Shown in pieces: positions 39,995 to 54,030 of a stretch of 64,000 bases of DNA. The position numbers and the translations under genes were made by a program. The notes beneath the pieces are model-generated. The model worked only from the letters and a program-made list of their open reading frames with translations. It did no database searches and was not told where the DNA came from. The DNA is taken from contig CAZMQW010000001.1 of the NCBI GenBank assembly GCA_964568775.1, forward strand, positions 719 through 64,718, read 5' to 3'. Every line of letters starts with the position of its first letter. The first letter of the stretch is position 1. The DNA comes from an uncultured Candidatus Saccharibacteria bacterium. GTDB taxonomy: Bacteria; Patescibacteriota; Minisyncoccia; Minisyncoccales; MHMH01.

Positions 39995-40800
39995 AAAAAT
40001 TTAATATCGCCGTTAAGATCGGTTCTTAAAACGTTTATACCATACTTTTCCAAAATCGCCAAAGTTTCGGGATGGGGATGGCCGTAGCTGTTGTCCCGGC
40101 CAGCCGAAACAACGGCAATTTCCGGAGAAACCGCTTTGATGAATTCTTCGGCGCTGGAGGTTTTGCTGCCATGATGCCCGACCTTTAAAACATCAACGTC
40201 AACTTTCATCCCCTGCCTGACCAAATCTATCTCGACCGACTTGTAAGCGTCGCCGGTGAACAAAAAACTGTTTTCGCCGAAAACCAGCCGAACGCTGACA
40301 GAGGTATTATTGACATTGCTGACGGTTTTGCCGTTAAAATCCTCAAACGGATACAAAACCTCGATCCAGGCCGAACCACCGTTAATCTGCTGGCCGGCTT
40401 GGGCAATAAAGATTTCCGCTTCTTCTTCCCCGATCAGCCTCTGCCACTCCTGATATTCGGCCGTATCTCTCAAAACGCCGGTCCACAATATATTTTCAAC
40501 CCGATATCTCGACAAAACTTCTATCAAACCGGCAATGTGGTCGTGCTCGGGATGAGTTAAAATAATCAGATCAATTGTTCTGTCCCAAAAAGGCATCTCT
40601 TCCCCCAGCTTTTCCAAAACCGTTGCATCCGGTCCCCCATCAATCAGAATCTGGTGGTTCTGCGGGGTTTCAATGAAAATACTGTCTCCCTGACCCACGT
40701 CAAAAAAAGTCACCTTGAGAAACTGAGGCTGGCTTAAATTATAAACGGCCACCCAGGCGAGAATGTTCAGGCCGAACAGAAGAAATAAAATTTTCTTCAT
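39964..40800 (-). CDS. ComEC/Rec2-related metallo-beta-lactamase-domain protein (MBL domain only, signal/TM anchor)
   Basis: MKKILFLLFGLNILAWVAV.., DVGQGDS, HPEHDHIAGL and KVGHHGS. Confidence 0.7.
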   Translation of the reverse strand: MKKILFLLFGLNILAWVAVYNLSQPQFLKVTFFDVGQGDSIFIETPQNHQILIDGGPDATVLEKLGEEMPFWDRTIDLIILTHPEHDHIAGLIEVLSRYRVENILWTGVLRDTAEYQEWQRLIGEEEAEIFIAQAGQQINGGSAWIEVLYPFEDFNGKTVSNVNNTSVSVRLVFGENSFLFTGDAYKSVEIDLVRQGMKVDVDVLKVGHHGSKTSSAEEFIKAVSPEIAVVSAGRDNSYGHPHPETLAILEKYGINVLRTDLNGDIKFLCSSQSLELK

Positions 40801-40806
40801 TAACCT

Positions 40807-40812
40807 ATTATA
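40807..40812 (-). promoter_or_regulatory. -10 box TATAAT, 6 nt from the ATG
   Basis: Minus strand TATAAT-aggtta-ATG(40800). I saw no convincing -35. Confidence 0.35.
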
Positions 40813-40838
40813 CAACAAAAGCCGTCTTTTAAGACGAC
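40813..40838 (-). terminator. rho-independent terminator after the DUF5679-like gene
   Basis: Minus strand GUCGUC-UUAAAA-GACGGC followed by UUUUGUUG. Confidence 0.45.
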
Positions 40839-41439: not shown

Positions 41440-42012
41440 TTATCCAAGTTTCTCTAAAACTTTAAAATCTTTCCTCAAGGTTTCTTTCATGTTGGAGTTG
41501 TAAGTAGCCACGGCGGGATGATAAAGAGGAATAATTTTTATACTTTGAAAGAGATTTTTAACTTCGAAAATCCTGCCGTGAATTTTACTTATTCCCTGAA
41601 CTTGGTTTTTTAATCCATATTTTTCCATTAGGTAGACTGTGGAAAAATTTCCTAACGTACAGATTATCTTCGGCCTTATAATTTCGATCTGTCTCTCCAG
41701 ATACGAAGCGCAAGCTTGAATTTCTTCTTTCTGGGGGTTGCGATTACCGGGCGGACGGCATTTAAGGATATTGCAAATATAAATATCTTTCCTTTTTATT
41801 TTTATTGAGTCTAAAAGCTCGTCTAAAATTTCTCCGGCCGCTCCGCAAAAAGGGCGACCAGTCCTGTCTTCATTAGCTCCCGGTGCTTCTCCTATAAACA
41901 TTATCTCAGCTTTATCGTCCCCTTCTCCGACTACTGGAAAATTCCTTGTTTTATAAAGAAGACATTTCCTGCAATCGGCAATTTCGGTTTTAATTTTTTC
42001 TAAATCACTCAT
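41440..42012 (-). CDS. family-4 uracil-DNA glycosylase (Fe-S type)
   Basis: CRKCLLYKTRNFPVVGEG.., IMFIGEAPG and HPAVATY. Confidence 0.8.
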   Translation of the reverse strand: MSDLEKIKTEIADCRKCLLYKTRNFPVVGEGDDKAEIMFIGEAPGANEDRTGRPFCGAAGEILDELLDSIKIKRKDIYICNILKCRPPGNRNPQKEEIQACASYLERQIEIIRPKIICTLGNFSTVYLMEKYGLKNQVQGISKIHGRIFEVKNLFQSIKIIPLYHPAVATYNSNMKETLRKDFKVLEKLG

Positions 42013-42035: not shown

Positions 42036-43424
42036 TCAGACCAGGCCCAGTATCATAGCTATTCCCAATCCTAACACGATCAGGCCGGAGATTAAATTCA
42101 GGTATCTTATATTTCTTACCTGCCAGCTTGAAATGTTTTCAACTCTTGACAGGCCTAAATAAATTATCAAAACCACGGCCAGCATTGGCAAGACAAATAT
42201 TAAATTATAAAACAGCAGCCAGGGCAGAGCTTTCAGTAGACCCAAAGGGCAAAGAATGCCTCCGCAGATAATATAGGGGCCGATGGTGCAGGGAAGCAAA
42301 AATATGGTCACGAAAGCTCCGACCGCAAAAGCACCCTTGGGACTGGTTATTCTTGCAATAACTTTGTCTACTTTCGGTGATATTTTGCAAACTGCCTTGG
42401 CCTGGAAAAAATCTTTTAATTTCAAACAGCCTAAAATTACGGCTCCGGCGCCTAAAATTTTATAAAGCCATAATCTAACGGCGGTTAAAACTTGAACGAG
42501 CTGGAATGATTTAATAATAATTAATCCATAAATTAAATACATAACGAAAACCGAAACAATGAAAGCTAGCCCAGCCAATAAAATATTCCTTTTTTTAGTC
42601 GGATTATAAGTCAGAATGGCGATAAGCATCAAAGTTAAAACCGCCAAGGCGCAAGGGTTGACGGCGTCTATGGCCGCCAGGGACAAAACCTTAGCCATGG
42701 TAAGTTTTAAGTCGGATTCAGCCAAGGGGGTTTCTTCCGTGGCCGTTTCTCCTTCCGAGGGCAAAACTTCCAAAGCGGGTCCATTCCACTGAAAGATCCA
42801 ATTGCCAATTGAAATTCCATTGTCAAATCCGACATATTTCCCAGAAAGAGGAATTTTAAAAGGTTTTATCTCCTGAAACTCAATGTCCTTTAAGACTTCA
42901 TTCAAATCATCTTTGACCAACAATTCTTTTAATAATTCACTGTCTCCACCTGGGCCAACTTTTATCAAAATTTTTCCTTGATACCAAATTTTTGGGAAAC
43001 CAGAAAGTGAAACAAGATTTAAATCGCTGAAATCAACAGAACTACCGTCTATTAAAGGGCATTTATTTAACTGAAATCCTTCAATCGTTTCTCTCGCTTC
43101 TTGAGGTATTGAAAAGCTGCCGGATAGACTCTGTTCTTTATTAAAAATTATCAAAGGAATCCCCAATCCAGAATTATATTCTTCATTATACCGATAAATT
43201 AAAGGAGCATTCTCTGTCTGTTGGTAAATTTCGTACTCAATCACAACAAAATTAGCGTATTCTCGGGGCAATTCTTCAAGCACGATAGGATCTGTTTCAG
43301 CGCAATGAGGACAACCAACGCCGGTAAAATAAACAGCGCAGACATAATCCTTTTGTGCTAAGACATTTTGCAAAGAAAAAAATAGCAGACCCAAAACAAA
43401 AATGGCGAAAATAAATTTCTTCAT
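42036..43424 (-). CDS. secreted thioredoxin-fold domain fused to a CcdA/DsbD-type transmembrane thiol-disulfide transporter
   Basis: Signal peptide MKKFIFAIFVLGLLFFSLQNVLAQ, CPHC motif, then a multi-TM C-terminal half with AIDAVNPCAL and LLPCTIGPY. Confidence 0.7.
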   Translation of the reverse strand: MKKFIFAIFVLGLLFFSLQNVLAQKDYVCAVYFTGVGCPHCAETDPIVLEELPREYANFVVIEYEIYQQTENAPLIYRYNEEYNSGLGIPLIIFNKEQSLSGSFSIPQEARETIEGFQLNKCPLIDGSSVDFSDLNLVSLSGFPKIWYQGKILIKVGPGGDSELLKELLVKDDLNEVLKDIEFQEIKPFKIPLSGKYVGFDNGISIGNWIFQWNGPALEVLPSEGETATEETPLAESDLKLTMAKVLSLAAIDAVNPCALAVLTLMLIAILTYNPTKKRNILLAGLAFIVSVFVMYLIYGLIIIKSFQLVQVLTAVRLWLYKILGAGAVILGCLKLKDFFQAKAVCKISPKVDKVIARITSPKGAFAVGAFVTIFLLPCTIGPYIICGGILCPLGLLKALPWLLFYNLIFVLPMLAVVLIIYLGLSRVENISSWQVRNIRYLNLISGLIVLGLGIAMILGLV

Positions 43425-43487
43425 AATTTACTCAACCTTAATTCAAGATTATATAATTTATAGTCTAACAAGCCAAGGTTTCGCCGG

Positions 43488-43775
43488 TTATTGACGAGGC
43501 ATGGTTCTTATCTTTATGGCCTTACCCTCTGTTAGGGCTTGGGCTATTTTTTTATGAGCCGAGGTAAGAATTCTCTGAAAGGTGCTCTGGGAAATATTCA
43601 TTTTTTTAGCGGCCTCAGCCTGATTCAAATCTTTCAAATCACAAAGTCTCACAGCCTCTAATTCATCAGCTGCCAAATCTACCTCTTCTAATTGAAGAAG
43701 AGGTACTGCCCTAGGTTTAAAATAAGTCACGTTTGGATCAAAGAGAATTTTTCTTTGTTTTGGAGGTCTTGCCAT
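43488..43775 (-). CDS. DUF134/UPF0251 putative DNA-binding protein
   Basis: MARPPKQRKILFDPNVTYFKPRAVP...DELEAVRLCDLKDLNQAEAAKKMNISQSTFQRIL. The start overlaps the upstream gene by 49 nt. Confidence 0.7.
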   Translation of the reverse strand: MARPPKQRKILFDPNVTYFKPRAVPLLQLEEVDLAADELEAVRLCDLKDLNQAEAAKKMNISQSTFQRILTSAHKKIAQALTEGKAIKIRTMPRQ

Positions 43776-44620
43776 ATTTCTTTAATTTCTTTTTTAGCTT
43801 TCAGGTTGGTCTCTAAAATCGGGGTCAAATCGGCAATTGCTTTGAATATTTTTTTGTCATAAGATATTTTACCCAAAAATTTTGGACCTGACCATTCTTT
43901 TATTTTTTGGCTTAGCTGAGGATTAATGTCCCATTTATTTATTACCAAGCCCCAGGGGATTTTAAAATGATTGACTACTTCTAAAACTCTTTTTAAATCA
44001 GAGAATCCGGAGGGAGTGGGCTCGGTGATTAAAACTGTAAAATCGGCTCCCTGCAAGGAAGCGATAACCGGGCACCCGGTACCGGGAGCGGAATCAATAA
44101 TCATCAAACTGTGTTTCAGTTTCTCTGCTTCTTTTTTTATTTCTGCCACCACTTTCCCGGAGCCTGTATTTCCCGGAAAAAGATTCCCCGAAACCAAGGA
44201 GAAGCCGTGCCTGTTTTTTTTAATCTTTATCTCCCCGTTCTGAACCGTCTTTAATTTTATTGCTTTTTGCGGACAAATAACTTCGCAAGCGCCGCATCCT
44301 TCACATAGGAATGGATTTAATTTCGGTTTGCCACCGGCCATTTTTATTGCTGAAAACCGACAATTTCTGGCGCAAAGACCGCAACCATCGCATTTTTTGT
44401 AGTCAATCTCTGGCAGGGCGGCAGCGAGAACCGGAATGGTTTTGTCCCATTTTTTAACTCCACCCAACCAAATCGCTAAGTTGGGTGTATCGGCGTCACA
44501 ATCCACTGCCACTGTTTTTTTAGTTTTAGCAGAAAGCACGGCTAAGGCCGAAGCTAGCATTGATTTTCCTACTCCGCCCTTTCCTGATGCAATTACCAAT
44601 TTAAATTTTTTATCTTGCAT
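43727..44620 (-). CDS. MinD/ParA-type P-loop ATPase with inserted 2x[4Fe-4S] ferredoxin domain (COG1149-like), copy 2
   Basis: ASGKGGVGKS, CDGCGLCARNC, CEGCGACEVICP and DSAPGTGCPV. I chose the ATG at 44620. Confidence 0.8.
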   Translation of the reverse strand: MQDKKFKLVIASGKGGVGKSMLASALAVLSAKTKKTVAVDCDADTPNLAIWLGGVKKWDKTIPVLAAALPEIDYKKCDGCGLCARNCRFSAIKMAGGKPKLNPFLCEGCGACEVICPQKAIKLKTVQNGEIKIKKNRHGFSLVSGNLFPGNTGSGKVVAEIKKEAEKLKHSLMIIDSAPGTGCPVIASLQGADFTVLITEPTPSGFSDLKRVLEVVNHFKIPWGLVINKWDINPQLSQKIKEWSGPKFLGKISYDKKIFKAIADLTPILETNLKAKKEIKEIWQDLQNKEKFSLIQT

Positions 44621-44628
44621 TGCGCCGT

Positions 44629-45222
44629 TTATTTTACAAACAATCCGCAAAAACAATGGCCATCTCTTTCAATTTCCTCTCGATGCCATTGGCAGGGGCA
44701 AATTTTAGGACGATCTTCTTCTTGATTCTCACTTATCCTCCGACAAGGACAATACCTGGCTCCCCATTTCTTCTCGTTGGCCAAAAGGCCCGCTACTAAT
44801 TTTTCCACTGCTTTCCTGTCCGGATTCAGCTTAAATCCATTTTTCTGAGCATAACTTTCGTAGTTTTTGATTACTTCTTCAATTTTTTCCATAACTTGAT
44901 TAATAATTTTTTGATTTTCTTCCAACCATTGCCTTATTATTTGCTCGGGCCTTGCCCCCAAAAATCCGCTGATCGGCCTTCCCCATTCAAAAAGAATGAC
45001 GGTTGGAATCTGTTCGACCTTATATTTTTGAGCAGTAAGAGGAGCTTCGTCTACGTTGACTTTAGCCAAAATCAACTTATCCTCATGATCTTCAACTACT
45101 TTTTCCAAAATAGGGGCCAGCGCAGAACAAGGCATGCACCACTGCGCCCAAAAGTCAATTAGAATCGGCTTATCCGCTGCTTGAATTTCTTTCTCAAAAT
45201 TTTCATCAGTAAGAGTAAGCAT
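44629..45222 (-). CDS. thioredoxin fused to a ferredoxin:thioredoxin-reductase catalytic-subunit-like domain
   Basis: N-terminal Trx fold with WCMPC. C-terminal CPC-x14-CPC-x12-CFC (ARYCPCRR...KICPCQWH...GHCFCGLF). Confidence 0.7.
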   Translation of the reverse strand: MLTLTDENFEKEIQAADKPILIDFWAQWCMPCSALAPILEKVVEDHEDKLILAKVNVDEAPLTAQKYKVEQIPTVILFEWGRPISGFLGARPEQIIRQWLEENQKIINQVMEKIEEVIKNYESYAQKNGFKLNPDRKAVEKLVAGLLANEKKWGARYCPCRRISENQEEDRPKICPCQWHREEIERDGHCFCGLFVK

Positions 45223-45232
45223 TTTTATTTAT

Positions 45233-46426
45233 TCACTCCGAACATAGCTTTGTTCTGGTTATTCGGGCTATCTCTGGATTTAAAGCTCTTAAACGACCTT
45301 TATCCAAATTGTGGATATTATTCTCCCCGCAGGCGCCAGCAATCATTTTTATCTCTTCGGTGCAATTTTTAATGTAATCGGCAATATCCCGGGAAGCCTC
45401 TTCAACATTTAGATTTTTCCTTAGTTCTGGGTCTTGGGTAGCAATGCCTTTCGGACATTTTCCTAAATAACATTGCTGGCAATAAGTGCAGCCCATGGCA
45501 ATTAATAATGGGAAAGCAACAAATACTGCATCAGCTCCCAAAGCCAAGGCTTTAGCGAAATCTGCTCCCTGATTGAGGCCTCCACCAATCCATAATTCCT
45601 GTTTAGCTTTAATTTTATCCAAAACCTCTCTGGCTTTTACCAAGACCGCCAAAGTAGGGATGCCGACCTCATTCAGCATTACCTCCGGCGCAGCTCCGGT
45701 TCCCCCTTCCAAACCATCAATGGCAATAATATCGGGATTCGCTTTTACCGCGAATTTTACATCGCTCTCAATATCTCCGGGTCCTAACTTTAAAATAATC
45801 GGCACTCCTCCGGTCAGATTTCTCAACCAATAGATTCTCTTTTTCAGATCGTCAACATTCTTAATGTCTGAATGATAGGCTGGAGAATGAACGTCTTTGC
45901 CTTTTTCAATTTTTCTCACTTCGGCAATTTCATCAGTTATTTTTTCCTTAGGGAGAAGACCTCCCTGGCCAGGCTTTGCTCCTTGGCCAATTTTTATTTC
46001 AATGGCATCTGCCTTTCTCAAAACGTCTTCTGTAATGCCGAACCTGCCGGTGGAATACTGGATAATGAGTTTTTCTGAAAATTCTCTCTCTTCCGGCAGC
46101 AGCCCTCCTTCACCGGTATTACCCATGGTCCCAGCCATAGCCGAAGCTTTAGCCAGGGCGATTTTAGCTTCTTTGCTTAACGCTCCGAAGCTCATTGCTC
46201 CAATTACTATTGGAGTTTTTAATTCAATCGGCCTTTTACTGTTTTTGCCAATCACGGTTCTGGAGCTTATTTCCTCTTTAAAATAATCCACCGGCCTCTT
46301 GGTTAATTGGGCAGGCACAAAAACCAAATCATTAAAGCTAATTTTATCGGCTTTATCGGACCGGCCGCCGCTTACTGGAACACCTTTAACTCTCTTTTGA
46401 ATTTCTTTAATCCAATTTCTGTCCAT
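45233..46426 (-). CDS. glutamate-synthase-related FMN-binding (GltB domain-2-like) protein
   Basis: 397 aa with ..IKIGQGAKPGQGGLLP.., DGLEGGTGAAP and CTYCQQCYLGKCPKGIATQDPELR. Confidence 0.75.
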   Translation of the reverse strand: MDRNWIKEIQKRVKGVPVSGGRSDKADKISFNDLVFVPAQLTKRPVDYFKEEISSRTVIGKNSKRPIELKTPIVIGAMSFGALSKEAKIALAKASAMAGTMGNTGEGGLLPEEREFSEKLIIQYSTGRFGITEDVLRKADAIEIKIGQGAKPGQGGLLPKEKITDEIAEVRKIEKGKDVHSPAYHSDIKNVDDLKKRIYWLRNLTGGVPIILKLGPGDIESDVKFAVKANPDIIAIDGLEGGTGAAPEVMLNEVGIPTLAVLVKAREVLDKIKAKQELWIGGGLNQGADFAKALALGADAVFVAFPLLIAMGCTYCQQCYLGKCPKGIATQDPELRKNLNVEEASRDIADYIKNCTEEIKMIAGACGENNIHNLDKGRLRALNPEIARITRTKLCSE

Positions 46427-46431
46427 AATTC

Positions 46432-47253
46432 CTAAAAATTAAAATTTATTAATTGACCCTTTGAGTAGGCTTCGACTAATTCCCGGGAATAAGGAATTTC
46501 CTGCTCTATTTTTGTTTTGAATTTTTTAATGACGGGGTAAATCTTTCTTTTGTCGCCTAAATCGGCTTGGTTCAAAATTACTTTAGTTGGTACATTTAAT
46601 TTCCGGCATAAATCTAAAATTAAATTTAAATCGTAGGCGCCCATCGGCGTAGGTTCGGTAACCGCGTAAGCCGAGTCGCAATTGATCAAGGCGGAGACAA
46701 CCGGGCAATGAATACCGGCTGCTGTATCGAATAAAACAAAATCTGCTTTAATCTTCCTAGCCAAATCCAAGGCGAATTTTTTAGTTTGAGCCACCACCGG
46801 GCCGGTCTCTTCAAGCCCGGCCTTGGCCATTCCCGTTATCAGCCAATAGTTCTTATTTATTTTATTAACGAAGACCTGGCCCGTTTCTTCTTTTTTGGGC
46901 TTAATTGCCTTATGCGGACAAATAATCCAACAAGCCCCGCAACCAGAACATAAATCCTTAAGAAAGACGGGGTATTGTCCCGGTGTCTGAAAAATGGCAT
47001 TGCTCCGGCAAGTTTTGGCGCATAAACCACATTTTTTGCATTTTTCTTCAATCAACTCTGGAAATTCGGCATAAATTTTCTCCATCGGTTTTTTTAATTT
47101 TTCTCCCAGGAGCAGATAATCATTAGGGCATTCTACGTCGCAATCACAAAGAATAACCTTCTTGTCTTTTTTAACAAACTGATTAGCAAACAAGATAGCA
47201 ATAGTGCTTTTGCCGGTGCCGCCTTTTCCCCCGCTAATGGCGATTTTTTCCAT
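46432..47253 (-). CDS. MinD/ParA-type P-loop ATPase with inserted 2x[4Fe-4S] ferredoxin domain, copy 1
   Basis: SGGKGGTGKS, CKKCGLCAKTC, CSGCGACWIICP and DTAAGIHCPV. Confidence 0.8.
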   Translation of the reverse strand: MEKIAISGGKGGTGKSTIAILFANQFVKKDKKVILCDCDVECPNDYLLLGEKLKKPMEKIYAEFPELIEEKCKKCGLCAKTCRSNAIFQTPGQYPVFLKDLCSGCGACWIICPHKAIKPKKEETGQVFVNKINKNYWLITGMAKAGLEETGPVVAQTKKFALDLARKIKADFVLFDTAAGIHCPVVSALINCDSAYAVTEPTPMGAYDLNLILDLCRKLNVPTKVILNQADLGDKRKIYPVIKKFKTKIEQEIPYSRELVEAYSKGQLINFNF

Positions 47254-47277
47254 ATTTTTTCAAAAAATATTCTTTTT

Positions 47278-47598
47278 TTACAATTTTTTTAGTTTTTCCT
47301 CTTGGAAACTTTTGACATTCTCAGCAATATTTTTTTCAAGAGCCTCATAAATTTTAATTCCGAAATCTTTGAATTTTTCAAATGCTCTCTGCCCCAAATC
47401 AAAACAAATTACCGCACTTACGTCCAGTTTATTTAAAAATTCCGGCGGCAGTTCTTTCCGGCCGGCAATTTCAGGATTCGGGAAAACATTAAAATCTTTG
47501 GTATCAGTATTATAAATCAGATAATTTTTAGCTTGGCCGAAATGAAATGTCACCAAATCATCTAAATTTTCTCCGTCGGTCGGCAGAGCAATTTTCAT
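47278..47598 (-). CDS. NifX/NifB-C-terminal-like (dinitrogenase FeMo-cofactor-binding family) protein
   Basis: 106 aa: MKIALPTDGENLDDLVTFHFGQAKNYLIY.. ..VSAVICFDLGQRAFEKFKDFGIKIY. Confidence 0.65.
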   Translation of the reverse strand: MKIALPTDGENLDDLVTFHFGQAKNYLIYNTDTKDFNVFPNPEIAGRKELPPEFLNKLDVSAVICFDLGQRAFEKFKDFGIKIYEALEKNIAENVKSFQEEKLKKL

Positions 47599-48824
47599 GC
47601 TGAGATTTCTTTAATTAGGTCCCCGAGTTTTTTATTGGTCAACTCTATTCCGATATTGAAACTCTCCAAATTGGCCCTGGCGTTAGAACCAATCTCTCTG
47701 GTAATAATCTTATCGGCTGAAACTGCTTTGGCAAACCTTGCCCCGTGAGCATTTTCCGCTTCAAAGAAAGAATTTTCAATTATTTCTTTTTGTAAAATTT
47801 TTCCATTTTTTATGTCTATCACTAAATATTGAGCGACGCCGAAAATATCGGCAATTTCGTTTTTCTTCCCGTCGAAAGGAACTATGATTCTTTCGCCTAA
47901 TTTTTTGGGTCCGATCTGCTCGAAGCCCTTCAAGGCATAAATCATCTTGCCGAAACCTGAAACAATAGTGCTGCTTTTCATTTCGTGAGATTCTATAGAA
48001 ATGACAATATATTTTAATCCAGGGATATTCCGAAGAAGTCTCTCTTCTAAAGTTTTGGTTATCTTACTGACTTCATCAACCCTTAATTCCGGGTCTAATT
48101 GAATTTTAAGTTCGGCGAAGTTGGCAGCGCCAATCTTTCTAGTTTTTAATCCTGAGATGTTGATTTTGTGGGCGGAGCAAATTTTTCTGATTCTCTCTTC
48201 TATGTTTTTGTTAGAAACATCTAAAAGAGAATCGGTGATCTCTTTGCCGATGCTGAACGACTGCCAAATCACATAAAAGCCAATTAAAATCGCAATAACG
48301 GCATCGGCATAAATGAAATATCTTATCAAAACCAACCCGATTAAAACTCCCGCAGAAGAGATAACATCGGCTCGGGAGTGCTCGGCATCAGCCACCAGGG
48401 AAAGGCTTTCATGCTTCCGACCATAATAAAATTTTAATCTGGCCATTACCTCGTTAACCACAGTGGAAACGACCATCAAGCCTATAGCCCAAAGAGTAAA
48501 AGTGACCGGTTCCAGTTTCAGAAAGCGGCCTATTCCTTCGTAAATAATCCAAACTGCCGAAATAGTTAAAAGCAAAGCCACCGTTAAGCCGGCCAGGGTT
48601 TCTGCCCGATAAAAGCCATAAGGATGTTTTTCATCAACTGGTTTTTTAGCTATCTTAATTCCTAAAAAAGTGACGAAAGAAGAAAAAACATCTAAGCCGG
48701 AATGGATGGCATCGGCAACCAAAGCTACGCTGCCAACCGTAAATCCGGCTATCAACTTAAAGACAGCCAAAATAAAATTAACGACAGTACTAATAATAGA
48801 AATTTTCTCTTGGTTCATTTTCAT
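47595..48824 (-). CDS. cation diffusion facilitator transporter fused to a C-terminal NifX-like domain
   Basis: CDF core (..VALVADAIHSGLDVFSS.. HPYGFYRAETL.. ADAEHSRADV..). The last ~110 aa (..IIVPFDG..FGVAQYLVIDIKNGK.. ..ADKIITREIGSNARANLESFNI) are NifX-like. Confidence 0.7.
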   Translation of the reverse strand: MKMNQEKISIISTVVNFILAVFKLIAGFTVGSVALVADAIHSGLDVFSSFVTFLGIKIAKKPVDEKHPYGFYRAETLAGLTVALLLTISAVWIIYEGIGRFLKLEPVTFTLWAIGLMVVSTVVNEVMARLKFYYGRKHESLSLVADAEHSRADVISSAGVLIGLVLIRYFIYADAVIAILIGFYVIWQSFSIGKEITDSLLDVSNKNIEERIRKICSAHKINISGLKTRKIGAANFAELKIQLDPELRVDEVSKITKTLEERLLRNIPGLKYIVISIESHEMKSSTIVSGFGKMIYALKGFEQIGPKKLGERIIVPFDGKKNEIADIFGVAQYLVIDIKNGKILQKEIIENSFFEAENAHGARFAKAVSADKIITREIGSNARANLESFNIGIELTNKKLGDLIKEISA

Positions 48825-49261
48825 CTTCCTCTAAATCTATTCGGGCCCATTCCCCGTCCTCTGCCACCGCCCCTTTCCCTGCCTCTTCCGGAAAAACCAA
48901 GGCCAAAGTGGCCAGGAGTAGTTGGGGTTTCTATTTCTTTTAATTCGCCTTTATTATATTTATCAATAACCTCTCTGACGGTTAAGTCAAAAACCCCGGG
49001 ATATACTTTAACTCCGGACATTCGTAAAACCGAAAAAGCGTTAGGCCCAAAATTCCCGCAAATAACTGCTTCCGCTTTTTCAAAGACAACAATTTGGGCG
49101 GCAGCCACTCCTGCTCCCCTGCCAGTTTGCAAAGCCGTATTAGGCACTGCTTTAAATTCTTCGGTCTTTTTATCGATAATTAAAAAATAAGCGCAGCGGC
49201 CAAAAACTGATGACACTTGAGAGTCTAAATCGGGGGCATTGGCGCAAATACAAATCTTCAT
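48821..49261 (-). CDS. NifX-like protein with C-terminal Arg/Gly-rich tail
   Basis: MKICICANAPDLDSQVSSVFGRCAYFLIID.. GAGVAAAQ.. ICGNFGPNAFSVL.., then the tail GRGRERGGGRGRGMGPNRFRGR. The ATG is at 49261. Confidence 0.7.
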   Translation of the reverse strand: MKICICANAPDLDSQVSSVFGRCAYFLIIDKKTEEFKAVPNTALQTGRGAGVAAAQIVVFEKAEAVICGNFGPNAFSVLRMSGVKVYPGVFDLTVREVIDKYNKGELKEIETPTTPGHFGLGFSGRGRERGGGRGRGMGPNRFRGR

Positions 49262-49269
49262 ATTATAAA

Positions 49270-49482
49270 TTATCGGGCCCGGGTCATTGGTTGACCGCAT
49301 TTGGGGCAACGATGCTCATAGCAGGTAATTCCTCGGCGATGAGGGATCCTAGTGCCACAGCCCAGACAGATACACTCGCCGCCGGGTCCCAAACCAAAAC
49401 CACCTGGCTGACGGCCTTGTCCTCCCCCGCCTAACCTTCGGCCGGTTTTTGATCCTTGATTGAATCTTTTTCCGTTTGGCAT
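49270..49482 (-). CDS. Gly-rich N-terminus plus Cys/His zinc-ribbon mini-protein
   Basis: 70 aa: MPNGKRFNQGSKTGRRLGGGGQGRQPGGFGLGPGG, then CICLGCG..H...CYEHRCPKCG. Confidence 0.6.
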   Translation of the reverse strand: MPNGKRFNQGSKTGRRLGGGGQGRQPGGFGLGPGGECICLGCGTRIPHRRGITCYEHRCPKCGQPMTRAR

Positions 49483-49483
49483 A

Positions 49484-49756
49484 TTATTTTTTTGCTCCCA
49501 GTTCTTTTATCCTATTCTCAATATTTTTCATTTCTTCTCTCAAGGCTTGCAAATCTTCATTCAGTATTGCTTTTTCCTCTTTTGGGGCGGGAGGTTGGAA
49601 TGAATAATCCGGCCCCCAGCCAAACTGCCCCCAGCCCCTGCCAAAGCCTCTCCCCCAGCCGCGACGCCGACCCAAACCGGCTCCGCAGGGACCTCTGCCC
49701 CAACCGGCGCCGGAACCACCGCCCCAAACAGGGCCTCTTCCGTCAAATCCTGGCAT
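49484..49756 (-). CDS. DUF5320-like protein (Gly/Arg/Trp-rich N-terminus plus C-terminal coiled coil)
   Basis: MPGFDGRGPVWGGGSGAGWGRGPCGAGLGRRRGWGRGFGRGWGQFGWGP..., then KEEKAILNEDLQALREEMKNIENRIKELGAKK. Confidence 0.65.
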   Translation of the reverse strand: MPGFDGRGPVWGGGSGAGWGRGPCGAGLGRRRGWGRGFGRGWGQFGWGPDYSFQPPAPKEEKAILNEDLQALREEMKNIENRIKELGAKK

Positions 49757-49806
49757 AGTTTTTTTGCTTTTAAAATTAATTGAAAATTGCGACCTTTCCT
49801 ATTTTG

Positions 49807-49835
49807 AGTATATACCCATAATAACGCCCTGTCAA
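49807..49835 (-). promoter_or_regulatory. promoter of the 12-gene operon
   Basis: Minus strand TTGACA-N17-TATACT, about 50 nt upstream of the ATG at 49756. Confidence 0.55.
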
Positions 49836-49846
49836 GTGGATAAATC

Positions 49847-49875
49847 TTGACGACCTATTAAATAAAATATATAAT
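49847..49875 (+). promoter_or_regulatory. divergent promoter of the CxxC mini-protein gene
   Basis: TTGACG-N17-TATAAT. The ~90-nt leader contains the hairpin AAAGCGGC...GTCGCTTT. Confidence 0.55.
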
Positions 49876-49965
49876 GATTACAGGCCTTGTAAGTCGTATC
49901 TTAAAGTAAATTTTTAAGCAAAGCGGCTTATAAGTTTAAAGGTCGCTTTAATTTGTAAATTCATT

Positions 49966-50154
49966 ATGATGTTCAAAAAATCAGACGATGCTCCCAGGAA
50001 GGATTTTCCTCCTCGGGAGATGGTGAAAGGCAATTGGAAGTGCGCCGAATGCGGCAAAGAAATAACCGAAATGCCGTTTGAGCCTTCACCCGACAGACCA
50101 ATTTATTGCCGAGACTGCTGGTCAAAACGAAGAAGTCAAAGATTCGGACGATAA
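49966..50154 (+). CDS. CxxC-x18-CxxC zinc-ribbon protein
   Basis: 62 aa: ..WKCAECGKEITEMPFEPSPDRPIYCRDCWSKRR.. Confidence 0.65.
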   Translation: MMFKKSDDAPRKDFPPREMVKGNWKCAECGKEITEMPFEPSPDRPIYCRDCWSKRRSQRFGR

Positions 50155-50158
50155 ATGC

Positions 50159-50186
50159 AAAAACCCCGGCCAACGCCGGGGTTTTG
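50159..50186. terminator. bidirectional terminator between convergent genes
   Basis: AAAAA-CCCCGGC-CAAC-GCCGGGG-TTTT. Confidence 0.7.
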
Positions 50187-50192
50187 GTTACA

Positions 50193-50957
50193 TTAATCTT
50201 TGTCTGGCGTTTTCTTGCCGAATCTTTCAAAGGCTCTCAGAATCTCCAGGGGTACGGCAAACACAATGGTGTTAGATTGGTCGGAGCTGATGTCGTTGAT
50301 CGACTGCAGGGTTCTCAAATGCAGAGCGCCTTTGGCTTCCGATAAGGTCTGGGCGGCCTTGGCCATGTTGTCGGCGGCAATCACTTCTCCCTCGGCCTTG
50401 ATGATAATGGCTCTTTTTTCCCTTTCGGCTTCAGCCTGCTTACCAATCACTCTTTTCATTTCTTCAGGTAAAGTAATATCCTTCAGTTCAACATTATCTA
50501 CCTTAATTCCCCACGGATCGGTGGCCTTATCGATAATGGTTCTGATTTGTTCTGAAACCCTATCTCTTTGCGACAATAACTCGTCTAGGGAAACCTGGCC
50601 GACAGCGTTTCTCATGGTGGTTTGGGCCAACTGCGAAATAGCGTAATAAAAGTTTTCCACTTCTATGACAGCTTTATTGGCATCCTGCACCTTGTAGTAA
50701 ATAACCGCATTAACGCTGACTGAAATATTGTCTTTGGTAATAGCTTCCTGGTTGGGTACATCAACCGCTTTCACTCTGAGGTCTATTTTTTTGTAAAAAT
50801 AGAGTATCGGCCAGACCAGTCTCCAGCCCGGCTCCATCAACCCAACATACTTGCCCAGCCTGAATTTGACTCCTTTCTGGTACTGGTTAATCTGCCTGAT
50901 GGAGATTAAAACGATAAAGGCGATAACGCCCAAAACTATATAGATAACTGTTAGCAT
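50193..50957 (-). CDS. SPFH/band-7 (stomatin/slipin-like) protein
   Basis: 254 aa with an N-terminal TM helix and ..AEREKRAIIIKAEGE.. Confidence 0.85.
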   Translation of the reverse strand: MLTVIYIVLGVIAFIVLISIRQINQYQKGVKFRLGKYVGLMEPGWRLVWPILYFYKKIDLRVKAVDVPNQEAITKDNISVSVNAVIYYKVQDANKAVIEVENFYYAISQLAQTTMRNAVGQVSLDELLSQRDRVSEQIRTIIDKATDPWGIKVDNVELKDITLPEEMKRVIGKQAEAEREKRAIIIKAEGEVIAADNMAKAAQTLSEAKGALHLRTLQSINDISSDQSNTIVFAVPLEILRAFERFGKKTPDKD

Positions 50958-52770: not shown

Positions 52771-54030
52771 CTAATATCCTTTTAATTTTTTTAAGGCGCG
52801 GTGTTCGCGAATCCTATCCAGGGCCTTGGCTTCAATCTGACGAATCCGCTCACGGGTCACGCCAAACTCGTTGCCAACTTCTTCCAAGGTATGGGTAATG
52901 CCGTCTTCCAAACCAAATCTCATAGCCAATATTTTCTGCTCCCGAGGCGTCAAATCAGCCAAGATTTCTTTCAATCTTCCTTTCAAAAGAGTCCTGGCTG
53001 CTTCCAGGGAAGGAGCGATTACTTTTTCGTCCTCAATAAATTCAGCCAAAACGCTATCGTCTTCGTCCTCGCCCACCGGCGTCTCCAGAGAAACTGTGTC
53101 CTGGGATATTTTCTGGATATGGTGAACCTTGCTAACGTCAATCCCCATTTCAGCCGCAATCTCCTCGGCCAAAGGCTCTCTGCCCAAATCCTGCAGCAGT
53201 CTGCGCCTGACTTGGGTATATTTGGAAATGGTTTCCACCATGTGGACCGGTATGCGGATGGTCCTGGCCTGATCGGCCAAAGCCCTGGTTATCGCCTGTC
53301 TTATCCACCAGGTAGCGTAGGTGGAAAACTTGTAGCCTCTTCTCCAATCAAATTTTTCCACGGCCCGAAAAAGCCCCAAATTTCCCTCCTGTATCAAATC
53401 CAGCAGAGTGAGATTGGGAGAGCGGCCGATGTATTTCTTGGCAATCGAAACAACCAGTCTTAAGTTGGCCCGGGCCAGTTTTTTCCTGGCTTCGTCGTCC
53501 CCTTTCTCAATTTTCTTGGACAGTTCTTTTTCTTCTTCAGCCTTCAAAAAAGCAACCTTGCCGATTTCTTTCAGATACATCTGAACCGGATCCAGCCGCA
53601 CCTCGCCGCTCGGCTCGATAAGTTTCTGGTCGTCTTTCTCGGTCTCCAGAAACTCCCTGGCTTCTTTGACTTCAATCCCCTTTTTGTCCAATTCGTCGTA
53701 CAGGTTCTCCAGAGCTTTGATATTTTTCTCTATATCGGGGAAATAATATAAAATTTCCGAGTAGGTGACGAATTTCCGGTCAACTCCTTTCTGGATCAAT
53801 TCAGCCATTTTTTCAGAAACAACCGGCGCTTTCTTTGTCCTTTTTCTCGCTCTTTTGCTCGGTTTTTTCCTTTTTCTGGCTTTTGCCTTTTTCCTGACTT
53901 TCGCCTTCTTTTTTCTGACTGTTTTTCTGGTTTTTTTCTTTGGCTTCCCTTTTGGTTTCTTAATCCTTTTCTTCCGCATTAACCTTGTTTTTTTGCAAGA
54001 AGGCTTCTTTTTGGGTTTCTTCTTCTTCAT
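52771..54030 (-). CDS. rpoD: primary sigma factor (sigma-70 family) with polybasic N-terminal extension
   Basis: Regions 2-4 are present ([37 protein letters not shown].. [20 protein letters not shown]). The first ~70 aa are almost pure K/R. Confidence 0.9.

What the first reader, a model, noticed from the sequence alone, without database searches (positions are those of the whole stretch)
47595..48824. CDF metal transporter covalently fused to a NifX-like cofactor-binding domain
Seen in the sequence:
- A complete six-TM CDF core plus its cytoplasmic domain is followed by ~110 aa resembling the stand-alone NifX-like proteins encoded immediately upstream and downstream.
- Those two neighbours join it by 4-nt overlaps on both sides.

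By inference, the fusion implies direct hand-off between a membrane metal transporter and soluble carrier domains. This looks more like a metallochaperone relay than simple efflux.
Basis: partly seen in the sequence, partly recalled or inferred. Interest (0 to 1): 0.55.

Follow-up and report, generated by a model that had tools for sequence, protein, structure and literature searches.

The report
Metal exporter fused to NifX-like domain
This gene really does encode a membrane metal transporter with a NifX-type cofactor-binding domain attached to its cytoplasmic end. It sits in an iron-sulfur-handling operon conserved across ultra-small bacteria and archaea, and nobody appears to have studied the combination.

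Summary
ORF 47595-48824(-) encodes 409 aa in three parts:
- a six-helix CDF membrane domain, with transport site H41/D45/H149/D153;
- the CDF cytoplasmic dimerisation domain (aa 208-279);
- a conserved linker, then a divergent NifX/NafY/orange-protein-type domain (aa 311-408).

Pairwise BLAST and Pfam's threshold miss the last domain. Family profiles (hhalign E 3e-10 to the upstream neighbour's family) and a confident AlphaFold model detect it. The model's top 14 PDB matches are all this fold.

ATGA overlaps link both NifX-like neighbours to the gene.

The fusion is not a one-off:
- 51 Patescibacteria species genomes carry this form.
- A related form with a canonical PF02579 domain is common in DPANN archaea and Microgenomates.
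- It nearly always lies between a NifX-like protein with an IssA-like cationic Gly/Arg tail and Orp3/4-like MinD-ferredoxin ATPases.

Functional coupling of the transporter to a soluble metal-sulfur carrier or storage system is therefore well supported. Direct metal hand-off is not shown. The domain has no Cys and a cationic pocket, and CDFs are known as exporters. I favour a docking/sensing role that matches efflux to the state of the store.

No paper on this architecture was found. I rate it a new variant of a known kind.

The parts
49807..49835 (-). Promoter-like site TTGACA-17-TATACT upstream of the first gene of the operon
   Evidence: Matches 11 of 12 consensus positions and is the best site on this strand in 43300-50300. 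This is a consensus match only.
49484..49756 (-). DUF5320 protein (90 aa) with a Gly/Arg/Trp-rich N-terminal half; first gene of the operon
   Evidence: PF17253, 3.9e-15. Present upstream of the cluster in 23 of 51 CPR loci and in a Diapherotrites locus.
49270..49482 (-). 70-aa Cys-rich (CxCxxC...CxxC) small protein with a Gly/Arg-rich N-terminus
   Evidence: ORF. Only a weak zinc-ribbon hit. Conserved in 27 of 51 loci.
48821..49261 (-). Upstream NifX-like protein (146 aa from ATG 49261) with an IssA-like cationic Gly/Arg tail; its stop overlaps the CDF start (ATGA)
   Evidence: PF02579, 4.5e-20. Best PDB relatives are MTH1175 (7e-19) and orange protein (4e-16). The Gly/Arg-rich tail is conserved in orthologues and in a Woesearchaeota locus. 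Start and overlap read.
47595..48824 (-). CDF-NifX-like fusion protein, 409 aa (the finding)
48222..48797 (-). CDF transmembrane domain (aa 10-201), six helices; transport site A is H41, D45 (TM2), H149, D153 (TM5)
   Evidence: PF01545, 1.5e-50. Six helices in the model. Aligns to YiiP D45/D49/H153/D157. D45, H149 and D153 are invariant and H41 is at least 90% conserved.
47988..48203 (-). CDF cytoplasmic dimerisation domain (aa 208-279)
   Evidence: PF16916, 35.9 bits against GA 26.7. Alpha-beta-beta-alpha-beta fold in the model. YiiP site-C residues His232/248/261 align to S224/K240/S253.
47895..47987 (-). Linker (aa 280-310) carrying the start of the near-invariant motif G300-F-E-x-I-G305-P-K-K308-x-G310-x-R312-x-x-x-P316, which runs a few residues into the NifX-like domain
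   Evidence: Conservation. Low pLDDT at 289-294. The motif is absent from the archaeal-type fusions.
47601..47894 (-). NifX/NafY/orange-protein-type domain (aa 311-408), cytoplasmic
   Evidence: Conserved Y333, D337, K346, N351, H360(R/K), G361, R363(K), F364, K366, D371, N381, E387.
47278..47598 (-). Downstream stand-alone NifX-like protein (106 aa); its start overlaps the CDF stop (ATGA)
   Evidence: PF02579, 2.6e-17. Overlap read. Present in only 5 of 51 related loci.
46432..47253 (-). MinD/ParA-type P-loop ATPase with two 4Fe-4S ferredoxin motifs (Orp3/Orp4-like)
   Evidence: PF01656 plus Fer4 x2. Immediately downstream of the fusion in 41 of 51 CPR loci and in DPANN and Microgenomates loci.
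45233..46426 (-). Stand-alone glutamate-synthase FMN-domain protein; operon member in this genome
   Evidence: PF01645, 6e-115. Not part of the conserved core.
44629..45222 (-). Thioredoxin fused to the ferredoxin-thioredoxin reductase catalytic chain
   Evidence: PF00085, 3.9e-28, plus PF02943, 5.6e-23. Found in 6 of 51 loci.
43727..44656 (-). Second MinD/ParA-ferredoxin ATPase (Orp3/Orp4-like); last gene of the operon. The likely start is ATG 44620.
   Evidence: PF01656 plus Fer4. Found in 27 of 51 loci. A 302-nt gap and a promoter-like site follow it.

Best explanation
What the gene encodes (shown):
- A genuine three-module protein: a CDF (cation diffusion facilitator) membrane domain, the CDF cytoplasmic dimerisation domain, and a divergent NifX/NafY/orange-protein-type (PF02579/IPR003731) domain that must lie in the cytoplasm.
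- It is the membrane component of a tightly packed operon (49756 to 43727, minus strand).
- The conserved core of that operon is a NifX-like protein with an IssA-like cationic Gly/Arg tail, the CDF fusion, and two Orp3/Orp4-like MinD-ferredoxin ATPases. DUF5320 and a small Cys-rich protein often lie upstream.

How it most likely works (inferred):
- The CDF part is a proton-coupled exporter of a divalent transition metal, either Fe2+ or Zn2+. The core resembles Fe/Mn-type CDFs, and the site is His-Asp-His-Asp.
- The NifX-like domain does not carry the bare cation. It acts as a membrane-tethered docking and/or ligand-sensing module, equivalent to Orp8 in the Desulfovibrio Orp3-Orp4-Orp8 complex.
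- It would bind the operon's soluble partners, or their anionic metal-sulfide cargo, at the cytoplasmic mouth of the transporter.
- Metal efflux would then be matched to the loading state of the cytoplasmic iron-sulfur carrier and storage system, like an overflow valve.
For: Architecture:
-.

The fusion is selected, not accidental:
- 634 homologues were found. The 120 best are all 376-433 aa.
- 51 species-level genomes carry it.
- The NifX-like domain shows 0.60 mean pairwise identity against 0.68 for the TMD, with 30 of 98 columns at least 90% conserved.

Conserved neighbourhood:
- In the 51 CPR loci: upstream NifX-like gene 40 of 51, MinD-Fer4 41 of 51, second MinD-Fer4 27 of 51.
- The same cluster surrounds the canonical-PF02579 fusions in Woesearchaeota, Aenigmarchaeota, Microgenomates (next to feoAB) and Diapherotrites.

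IssA-like upstream partner:
- It has a PF02579 domain. Its nearest solved relative is MTH1175.
- It carries a Gly/Arg-rich cationic tail in nearly all orthologues.

ORP analogy:
- Orp3 and Orp4 (MinD-like, two 4Fe-4S motifs) co-purify with the single-domain Di-Nase protein Orp8.
- A Di-Nase domain is also fused to the Fe-S carrier MrpORP (PMC6345978).

Exporter type:
- The best NCBIfam similarities are MamM (152.7 bits), MamB (151.4), FieF (150.2) and MntE (143.3), against ZitB at 78.9.
- Site A is H41/D45/H149/D153.

Sensor or docking role rather than cation carrier:
- No Cys in the domain.
- H360 is replaced by R or K in 15 of 120.
- There is a conserved cationic cluster: K346, K350, R/K363, K366.
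- The YiiP CTD metal-site His residues are missing, so the usual CTD metal sensor appears to be absent.
Against: - Partner binding, ligand and transported metal are all inferred.
- All specific CDF equivalog models score far below their cut-offs, so the substrate is open.
- The archaeal-type fusions have a different site A, H/D-D-E/D-D. The metal may therefore differ between the two forms while the architecture is kept.
- One Thermoplasmatota fusion lies outside any such cluster.
- In NifB and MrpORP the fused NifX-like domain holds a cluster made or carried by the N-terminal part. By analogy this favours cargo hand-off over sensing.
- Conserved acidic residues D337, D371 and E387 could bind a cation.
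Confidence: 0.45

Rival explanations
1. Metallochaperone relay. The NifX-like domain itself binds the transported metal. It passes the metal directly between the CDF transport pathway and the soluble NifX-like proteins, so the system channels metal rather than simply dumping it.
For: - The genes are translationally coupled to NifX-like genes on both sides.
- The neighbourhood is conserved.
- There is precedent for NifX-like domains fused to the protein that supplies their cargo: MrpORP, and NifB as described in PMC8351635.
- The domain has conserved acidic residues D337, D371 and E387.
Against: - The domain has no Cys, and its His is not strictly conserved.
- Known ligands of this fold are anionic metal-sulfide clusters, not free cations. 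A CDF transports free cations (established knowledge).
- The downstream carrier is absent from 46 of 51 related loci.
Confidence: 0.25
2. Structural module only. The NifX-like domain has lost ligand binding and serves merely as an extra dimerisation or stability domain. The reasoning is that NifX-like domains dimerise, while the CTD has lost the YiiP-type metal bridge.
For: - It falls below the Pfam threshold.
- The canonical HFG motif is reduced to FG.
- YiiP site-C His residues are absent.
- The MrpORP Di-Nase domain elutes as a dimer.
Against: - Surface-type polar and charged residues are highly conserved: Y333, D337, K346, N351, H/R/K360, R/K363, K366, D371, N381, E387. That is more than a packing role needs.
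- The archaeal-type fusions keep a canonical, strongly conserved PF02579 domain.
- The gene is persistently linked to NifX-like and MinD-ferredoxin genes.
Confidence: 0.12
3. Reversed CDF acting as an importer. In these episymbionts the CDF runs inward, and the cytoplasmic NifX-like domain receives the incoming metal for the IssA-like and ORP-like assembly proteins.
For: - Placing an acceptor-type domain at the cytoplasmic exit would make sense for uptake.
- The operon otherwise contains only cytoplasmic metal-sulfur proteins.
- Antiporters are reversible in principle (established knowledge).
Against: - Characterised CDFs export from the cytoplasm (established knowledge).
- One related cluster sits beside feoAB, a dedicated Fe2+ importer. 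That argues uptake is handled separately.
- The objections about missing cation ligands apply here too.
Confidence: 0.08

Closest known systems
YiiP/FieF (E. coli, Shewanella) and the CDF family in general
   Same: - Six TM helices and a cytoplasmic alpha-beta-beta-alpha-beta dimerisation domain.
- A four-residue transport site on TM2 and TM5.
- It is the best solved-structure match (2qfi, E 2.8e-28).
- The TIGR01297 superfamily model is passed.
   Different: - It has an extra roughly 30-aa linker and 98-aa NifX-like domain.
- Site A is H-D-H-D, not D-D-H-D.
- YiiP CTD residues His232/248/261 align to S224/K240/S253.
- The FieF equivalog models score 150 and 134 bits against cut-offs of 420 and 447.
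Magnetosome CDFs MamM/MamB
   Same: - These are the highest-scoring named CDF models (152.7 and 151.4 bits).
- They are Fe-type CDFs that work with a dedicated iron-mineral system rather than for simple detoxification (established knowledge).
   Different: - The scores are far below the cut-off of 350.
- There are no magnetosome genes.
- MamM and MamB have no NifX-like domain.
MrpORP (Orp9) of Desulfovibrio
   Same: - A Di-Nase/NifX-like domain is fused to the C-terminus of a metal-trafficking protein.
- It is encoded with Orp3/Orp4-type MinD-ferredoxin ATPases and a single-domain NifX-like protein (PMC6345978).
   Different: - Its N-terminal partner is a soluble Mrp/NBP35 ATPase, not a membrane transporter.
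- Its Di-Nase domain has the Cys/His motifs CXHFGHCE and CDH and binds a [3Fe-4S] cluster. Those motifs are absent here.
- NF041136 is hit only partially and below its cut-off.
IssA (Pyrococcus furiosus iron-sulfur storage protein) and the 'IssX' clade
   Same: - The upstream, translationally coupled neighbour has the IssA architecture: an IPR003731 domain plus a cationic Gly/Arg-rich disordered tail.
- Its nearest solved relative is the IssA-type MTH1175.
   Different: - This applies to the neighbour, not to the fusion's own domain, which has no such tail.
- The tail here is shorter (about 30 aa against 70 aa) and poorer in aromatic residues.
- Thioferrate binding is untested.
NifX / NafY / NifB C-terminal domain (nitrogenase cofactor carriers) and the orange protein (Orp8)
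   Same: They share the fold (Foldseek hits 1p90, 9ian_F, 2wfb) and the family (PF02579).
   Different: - There are no nitrogenase genes in the operon.
- The host lineage (Patescibacteria) is not known to fix nitrogen.
- Sequence identity is only 11-25%.

Membership tests
Cation diffusion facilitator (CDF) family | Passes curated family models (Pfam PF01545, TIGR01297) | tested here: met
   PF01545 scores 172.1 bits against 26.6. TIGR01297 scores 232.1 against 82.35.
Cation diffusion facilitator (CDF) family | Six transmembrane helices followed by a cytoplasmic alpha-beta-beta-alpha-beta domain | tested here: met
   The AlphaFold model has helices 5-30, 33-59, 72-103, 111-137, 141-166 and 173-200, then H-E-E-H-E at 206-277. 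PF16916 scores 35.9 against 26.7.
Cation diffusion facilitator (CDF) family | Tetrad of Asp/His metal ligands on TM2 and TM5 (site A) | tested here: met
   H41, D45, H149 and D153 align to YiiP D45, D49, H153 and D157. They are invariant or at least 90% conserved.
Cation diffusion facilitator (CDF) family | Metal/proton antiport out of the cytoplasm | not testable with these tools
   Needs transport assays.
Named CDF equivalogs (FieF, MamM, MamB, MntE, ZitB, DmeF) | Score above the NCBIfam equivalog cut-off | tested here: not met
   Best scores are 152.7 (MamM, cut-off 350), 151.4 (MamB, 350), 150.2 (FieF, 420), 143.3 (MntE, 500) and 78.9 (ZitB, 408).
PF02579 / IPR003731 (Nitro_FeMo-Co, NifX-NafY-type domain) - C-terminal domain of the fusion | Pfam gathering score for this sequence | tested here: not met
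   19.0 bits against 26.3, E 0.0017, although it covers profile positions 3-90 of 94. 41 of the 120 closest homologues do carry a precomputed PF02579 hit.
PF02579 / IPR003731 (Nitro_FeMo-Co, NifX-NafY-type domain) - C-terminal domain of the fusion | Profile-level homology to established members | tested here: met
   The tail profile hits PH0822 (1.4e-6), TM1816 (5.5e-6) and MTH1175 (4.8e-5). hhalign against the upstream-neighbour family gives 96.8%, E 3.1e-10.
PF02579 / IPR003731 (Nitro_FeMo-Co, NifX-NafY-type domain) - C-terminal domain of the fusion | The family fold (three-stranded sheet start, then alternating helix and strand) | tested here: met
   The model has pLDDT above 90 for the domain. 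The top 14 Foldseek PDB hits are all family members, with TM-scores (normalised to the target) of 0.53-0.76.
PF02579 / IPR003731 (Nitro_FeMo-Co, NifX-NafY-type domain) - C-terminal domain of the fusion | Binds a metal-sulfur cluster or cofactor | not testable with these tools
   Needs anaerobic purification and spectroscopy.
NifX / NafY proper (nitrogenase cofactor chaperones) | Encoded with nitrogenase or nifENB genes in a diazotroph | tested here: not met
   All nine operon genes were scanned, as were flanking genes. None is a nif gene. Relatives are in Patescibacteria and DPANN.
NifX / NafY proper (nitrogenase cofactor chaperones) | Cofactor-ligating His equivalent to NafY H121 | not tested
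   Identity to NafY is 16%, too low for a reliable residue mapping. The only conserved His (H360) is R or K in 15 of 120 relatives.
IssA-type iron-sulfur storage proteins (applies to the upstream neighbour 48821-49261) | IPR003731 domain followed by a cationic, Gly-rich disordered tail | tested here: met
   PF02579, 4.5e-20. The tail is GHFGLGFSGRGRERGGGRGRGMGPNRFRGR. The last 45 residues are more than 25% Gly+Arg in about 40 of the 45 upstream-type orthologues listed, and in a Woesearchaeota locus. The definition is from PMC5524996.
IssA-type iron-sulfur storage proteins (applies to the upstream neighbour 48821-49261) | Forms thioferrate nanoparticles | not testable with these tools
   Experimental property.
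ORP (orange protein) complex gene cluster | Two paralogous MinD-type ATPases, each with two 4Fe-4S motifs (Orp3/Orp4), plus a single-domain Di-Nase protein (Orp8) | tested here: met
   46432-47253 and 43727-44656 each match PF01656 plus Fer4 x2. The upstream NifX-like protein matches orange protein 2wfb at 4.4e-16. The complex is described in PMC6345978.
ORP (orange protein) complex gene cluster | MrpORP (Orp9: Mrp/NBP35 ATPase plus Di-Nase domain) | tested here: not met
   NF041136 is hit only in parts, at 31-47 bits against a cut-off of 450. The operon has no Mrp/NBP35 gene.
ORP (orange protein) complex gene cluster | Sigma-54/OrpR-dependent regulation | not tested
   Only a sigma-70-type consensus scan was run. 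It found a near-consensus site at 49835-49807.

The most novel reading that the evidence does not exclude
The CDF-NifX fusion may be the previously missing membrane component of the enigmatic ORP/IssX-type machinery. It would physically couple trans-membrane flux of Fe (or another metal) to the assembly or dissolution of a protein-bound metal-sulfide store, in a module shared by horizontal transfer between CPR bacteria and DPANN archaea. In the strongest form, the NifX-like domain exchanges metal-sulfide cargo with the IssA-like protein under control of the MinD-ferredoxin ATPases. The CDF then supplies or removes the metal ion at that site. This would be analogous to MamB/MamM in magnetite biomineralisation, but for an iron-sulfide phase.
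Probability: 0.2. Interest if true: 0.8.

Novelty: new variant of a known kind. Interest (0 to 1): 0.55.

Why it matters
Two points make this worth following up.

- **CDF regulation.** CDF transporters are among the best-understood metal exporters. Their regulation is thought to reside in the cytoplasmic domain. A widespread subfamily that adds a NifX-type cofactor-binding domain, and in the CPR form lacks the YiiP-type CTD metal site, points to a different mode of control or cargo coupling.

- **A handle on the ORP cluster.** The gene cluster of MinD-ferredoxin ATPases plus NifX-like proteins (ORP complex, IssA/IssX) is common in anaerobes. Its function has stayed unclear since its description. 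A physical link to a metal transporter gives a concrete, testable hypothesis: this machinery handles a transported metal. It also provides a membrane protein with which to pull the complex down.

Tried and rejected
- **Pairwise comparison with the neighbours.** BLASTP of the tail against both neighbours found nothing. Family profiles were needed.
- **'The tail is just the normal CDF cytoplasmic domain.'** Rejected. ZT_dimer ends at aa 279, and a separate, confidently folded NifX-type domain follows.
- **Frameshift or assembly artefact joining two genes.** Rejected. The same architecture appears in over 100 independent assemblies.
- **Recent duplication of a neighbouring NifX-like gene.** Not supported. 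The tail profile scores the neighbours (16.8 and 8.6 bits) no better than distant archaeal PDB proteins (31.6 and 29.7 bits).
- **A true NifX.** Rejected for lack of any nif context.
- **Literature.** Searches for the fusion found no paper describing it. The terms used were CDF with Nitro_FeMo-Co, NifX or NafY; COG1433, COG1149 or DUF134; and thioferrate or IssA with Patescibacteria or DPANN. DUF5320 appears in only two unrelated papers.
- **The original ORP-operon paper** (PMC3133258) is not held.
- **Source record of the window.** The look-up returned only a 3.7-kb Logan contig. The organism is therefore inferred from the best named homologues (80% identity, Candidatus Nealsonbacteria).
- **dN/dS by domain** was considered and dropped, because relatives at 50-80% protein identity are saturated at synonymous sites. 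Per-domain identity was used instead.
Full report
**1. The observation**

The ORF 47595..48824 on the minus strand encodes 409 aa. It breaks down as follows.

- Pfam places Cation_efflux at aa 10-201 (1.5e-50) and the CDF dimerisation domain ZT_dimer at aa 208-279 (7.6e-9).
- The CDF superfamily model TIGR01297 scores 232 bits against a cut-off of 82.
- About 130 residues remain with no hit at default thresholds.
- Scanned alone, that tail hits only PF02579 (Nitro_FeMo-Co, the NifX/NafY/NifB-C domain). The hit is below threshold (19.0 against 26.3 bits, E 0.0017) but spans almost the whole profile.
- BLASTP against the two neighbours finds nothing.

It becomes clear with family information.

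- A profile of homologous tails matches both neighbours in register.
- The same kind of profile finds three solved family members at 1e-6 to 5e-5.
- hhalign against an alignment of the upstream neighbour's orthologues gives 96.8% probability and E 3.1e-10 over 93 columns.
- An AlphaFold model of the tail is confident (pLDDT above 90 for aa 21-127 of the tail).
- Its 14 best Foldseek matches in the PDB are all proteins of this fold: PH0822, TM1816, MJ0327, the Desulfovibrio orange protein, MTH1175, TM1290, Ta1041m, NafY core and NifX bound to NifEN. Unrelated RNase-H-like folds start only at E > 0.02.
- The full-length model shows six TM helices, the alpha-beta-beta-alpha-beta CTD, a less confident beta-hairpin linker (aa 282-299) and the NifX-like domain at aa 311-408.

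Both neighbours are bona fide PF02579 proteins, and both ATGA overlaps are in the DNA. Two small corrections apply.

- Most homologues start at the equivalent of Met3. The real start may therefore be ATG 48818, two bases after the upstream stop.
- The upstream gene most likely starts at ATG 49261 (146 aa), 8 nt after the preceding gene, not at the listed TTG.

**2. How widespread the fusion is**

*The CPR form.*
- A search of 5.8 billion proteins found 634 relatives. The best 120 are all 376-433 aa and cover 91-100% of the query.
- Where named, they come from Candidatus Nealsonbacteria, Parcubacteria or Patescibacteria. 41 of the 120 have a precomputed PF02579 hit.
- A scan of one genome per GTDB species with a tail-only alignment found 51 species. 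All are Patescibacteria MAGs, including two complete Nealsonbacteria chromosomes.
- An exhaustive HMMER search of 1.84 billion cluster representatives with the tail profile found only 95 clusters at E <= 0.001. This divergent tail family is therefore narrow.

*The more distant form.*
- Among the hits were nine more distant proteins of about 400 aa. All have a CDF core plus a canonical, above-threshold PF02579 domain. One is from Candidatus Hodarchaeota.
- Searching with one of them gave 562 relatives. All 120 best carry PF01545, PF16916 and PF02579.
- Where named, they come from Aenigmarchaeota, Woesearchaeota, Diapherotrites, Thermoplasmatota and Microgenomates.

The CDF-NifX architecture is thus common in DPANN archaea and CPR bacteria. 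The window's protein belongs to a divergent Nealsonbacteria-type branch: 30% identity to a Woesearchaeota fusion over the CDF core, with the tails not alignable by BLAST.

**3. Context**

The gene sits in a tightly packed minus-strand operon from 49756 to 43727. A near-consensus promoter-like site lies upstream, and a 302-nt gap plus another promoter-like site lie after the last gene. The gene order is:

1. DUF5320
2. a 70-aa Cys-rich protein
3. a NifX-like protein with a Gly/Arg tail
4. the CDF fusion
5. a NifX-like protein
6. a MinD/ParA ATPase with two 4Fe-4S motifs
7. a GltS FMN-domain protein
8. a thioredoxin-FTR-beta fusion
9. a second MinD-ferredoxin ATPase

Conservation in the 51 related loci:

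| Gene | Loci with it (of 51) |
|---|---|
| Upstream NifX-like gene | 40 |
| First MinD-ferredoxin ATPase | 41 |
| Second MinD-ferredoxin ATPase | 27 |
| Cys-rich ORF | 27 |
| DUF5320 | 23 |
| Downstream NifX-like gene | 5 |

Many of the missing cases are at contig ends.

The canonical fusions sit in the same kind of cluster:
- Woesearchaeota: DUF134, NifX-like, fusion, two MinD-Fer4 genes, then a TRASH-domain protein.
- Aenigmarchaeota.
- Microgenomates, directly downstream of feoB-feoA.
- Diapherotrites, which also has DUF5320.

One Thermoplasmatota fusion stands alone.

**4. What the partners are**

*The upstream protein.*
- Its nearest solved relatives are MTH1175 (7e-19) and the orange protein (4e-16).
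- Its C-terminus (GHFGLGFSGRGRERGGGRGRGMGPNRFRGR) is a cationic Gly/Arg-rich tail. The tail is conserved in character in nearly all orthologues and in the Woesearchaeota cluster.
- Vaccaro et al. describe this architecture for IssA, the Pyrococcus protein that stores Fe and S as thioferrate, and for an uncharacterised mesophilic 'IssX' clade. They name MTH1175 as an IssA-type protein (PMC5524996).

*The MinD-ferredoxin ATPases.*
- They match the description of Orp3 and Orp4 of the Desulfovibrio ORP complex.
- Orp3 and Orp4 co-purify with the single-domain NifX-like protein Orp8.
- The same complex contains MrpORP, an Fe-S carrier ATPase with a C-terminal NifX-like ('Di-Nase') domain that binds a [3Fe-4S] cluster (PMC6345978).

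So there is precedent both for NifX-like domains as partners of these ATPases and for fusing such a domain to a metal-trafficking protein.

**5. The transporter part**

- Alignment to E. coli YiiP puts H41 and D45 (TM2) and H149 and D153 (TM5) at the transport site. D45, H149 and D153 are invariant, and H41 is at least 90% conserved.
- The core is most similar to the Fe/Mn-type models MamM, MamB, FieF and MntE (143-153 bits) and much less to ZitB (79 bits). It passes none of their cut-offs.
- The three His residues of YiiP's cytoplasmic-domain metal site align to S224, K240 and S253. The usual CTD metal bridge seems to be absent in this branch.
- The archaeal-type fusions differ at site A: mostly H-D-E-D, and D-D-D-D in the Woesearchaeota example. 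The architecture, rather than one metal specificity, is what is conserved.

**6. The NifX-like domain**

- It is almost as conserved as the core. Mean pairwise identity is 0.60, against 0.68 for the TMD and 0.69 for the CTD. 30 of 98 columns are at least 90% conserved.
- It has no Cys in the query or in 111 of 120 relatives.
- Conserved polar residues are Y333, D337, K346, K350 (Glu in the query), N351, H360, R/K363, K366, D371, N381 and E387.
- H360 is Arg or Lys in 15 of 120 relatives. That fits an electrostatic role better than a metal-ligating one.
- The median pI of linker plus tail is 9.4.
- Known ligands of this fold are anionic metal-sulfide species: FeMo-co, NifB-co, the Mo-Cu sulfide cluster, thioferrate and [3Fe-4S].
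- A near-invariant linker motif (GFExIGPKKxGxRxxxP, aa 300-316) is specific to the CPR branch and remains unexplained.

**7. Interpretation**

*Shown:*
- The architecture.
- Its conservation.
- The operon linkage to IssA-like and ORP-like proteins in two domains of life.

*Inferred:*
- The NifX-like domain is cytoplasmic, from standard CDF topology.
- It couples the transporter functionally to the soluble metal-sulfur proteins.

I favour a docking and/or sensing role, an Orp8-like module tethered to the exporter so that efflux of Fe2+ or Zn2+ is matched to the state of the store. Three reasons support this: the domain lacks cation ligands, it looks built for anionic ligands, and CDFs export.

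A purely structural role and a reversed, importing CDF are less likely.

None of these can be separated without multimer modelling, anaerobic biochemistry or transport assays.

**8. Novelty**

The domain combination is visible in database annotations, always simply as 'cation diffusion facilitator family transporter'. I found no paper in the held library that mentions it or links CDFs to IssA or ORP clusters. It is a new variant of a known kind of transporter. It also offers a possible way into the function of the ORP/IssX cluster.

Noticed in passing
window 44629-45222 (-): A single ORF fuses a thioredoxin (PF00085, 3.9e-28) to the catalytic beta chain of ferredoxin-thioredoxin reductase (PF02943, 5.6e-23). 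It lies inside the same operon and recurs in 6 of 51 related loci.
   Followed up: partly
window 49484-49756 (-) and 49270-49482 (-): The DUF5320 protein has a Gly/Arg/Trp-rich N-terminal half. The 70-aa Cys-rich ORF has a Gly/Arg-rich N-terminus. Both therefore share the cationic Gly-rich character of the IssA-like tail next door. Both are conserved upstream of the cluster (23 and 27 of 51 loci), and DUF5320 also appears in a Diapherotrites cluster (L059).
   Followed up: partly
window 47877-47927 (-), aa 300-316 of the fusion: The motif G-F-E-x-I-G-P-K-K-x-G-x-R-x-x-x-P lies between the CTD and the NifX-like domain. It is near-invariant in the Patescibacteria branch and absent from the archaeal-type fusions. 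Its function is unknown.
   Followed up: partly
loci L052-L057, L059; proteins P0212-P0338: The archaeal/DPANN-type CDF-NifX fusions have a different transport-site tetrad: mostly H-D-E-D, and D-D-D-D in a Woesearchaeota protein. Their NifX domain carries a very strongly conserved TKEIGEISFHTLRDNLVDVY-like motif.
   Followed up: partly
window 41440-42012 (-): A uracil-DNA glycosylase superfamily gene (PF03167, 2.7e-36) recurs close to the cluster in 17 of 51 related loci. Some UDG families are 4Fe-4S proteins (from general knowledge; not checked here).
   Followed up: no
window 45233-46426 (-): A stand-alone glutamate-synthase FMN-domain protein (PF01645, 6e-115) sits between the two MinD-ferredoxin ATPase genes. 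It is not part of the conserved core elsewhere.
   Followed up: no
window 52771-54030 (-): A sigma-70-type factor has an N-terminal extension of about 75 residues made almost entirely of Lys, Arg and Pro ([33 protein letters not shown]...).
   Followed up: no
window 49966-50154 (+): A divergently transcribed 62-aa treble-clef zinc-finger protein (PF23477, 3.5e-14) shares the promoter region with the operon. A near-consensus promoter-like site lies on each strand (49847-49875 plus strand, 49835-49807 minus strand).
   Followed up: no
L056/L057 1485-3655: In Microgenomates bacterium DG_75 the CDF-NifX cluster lies directly downstream of feoB-feoA (ferrous iron uptake). A metallo-beta-lactamase-fold gene is inserted between the NifX-like gene and the fusion. 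A metallo-beta-lactamase-fold gene also lies at window 39964-40818.
   Followed up: no
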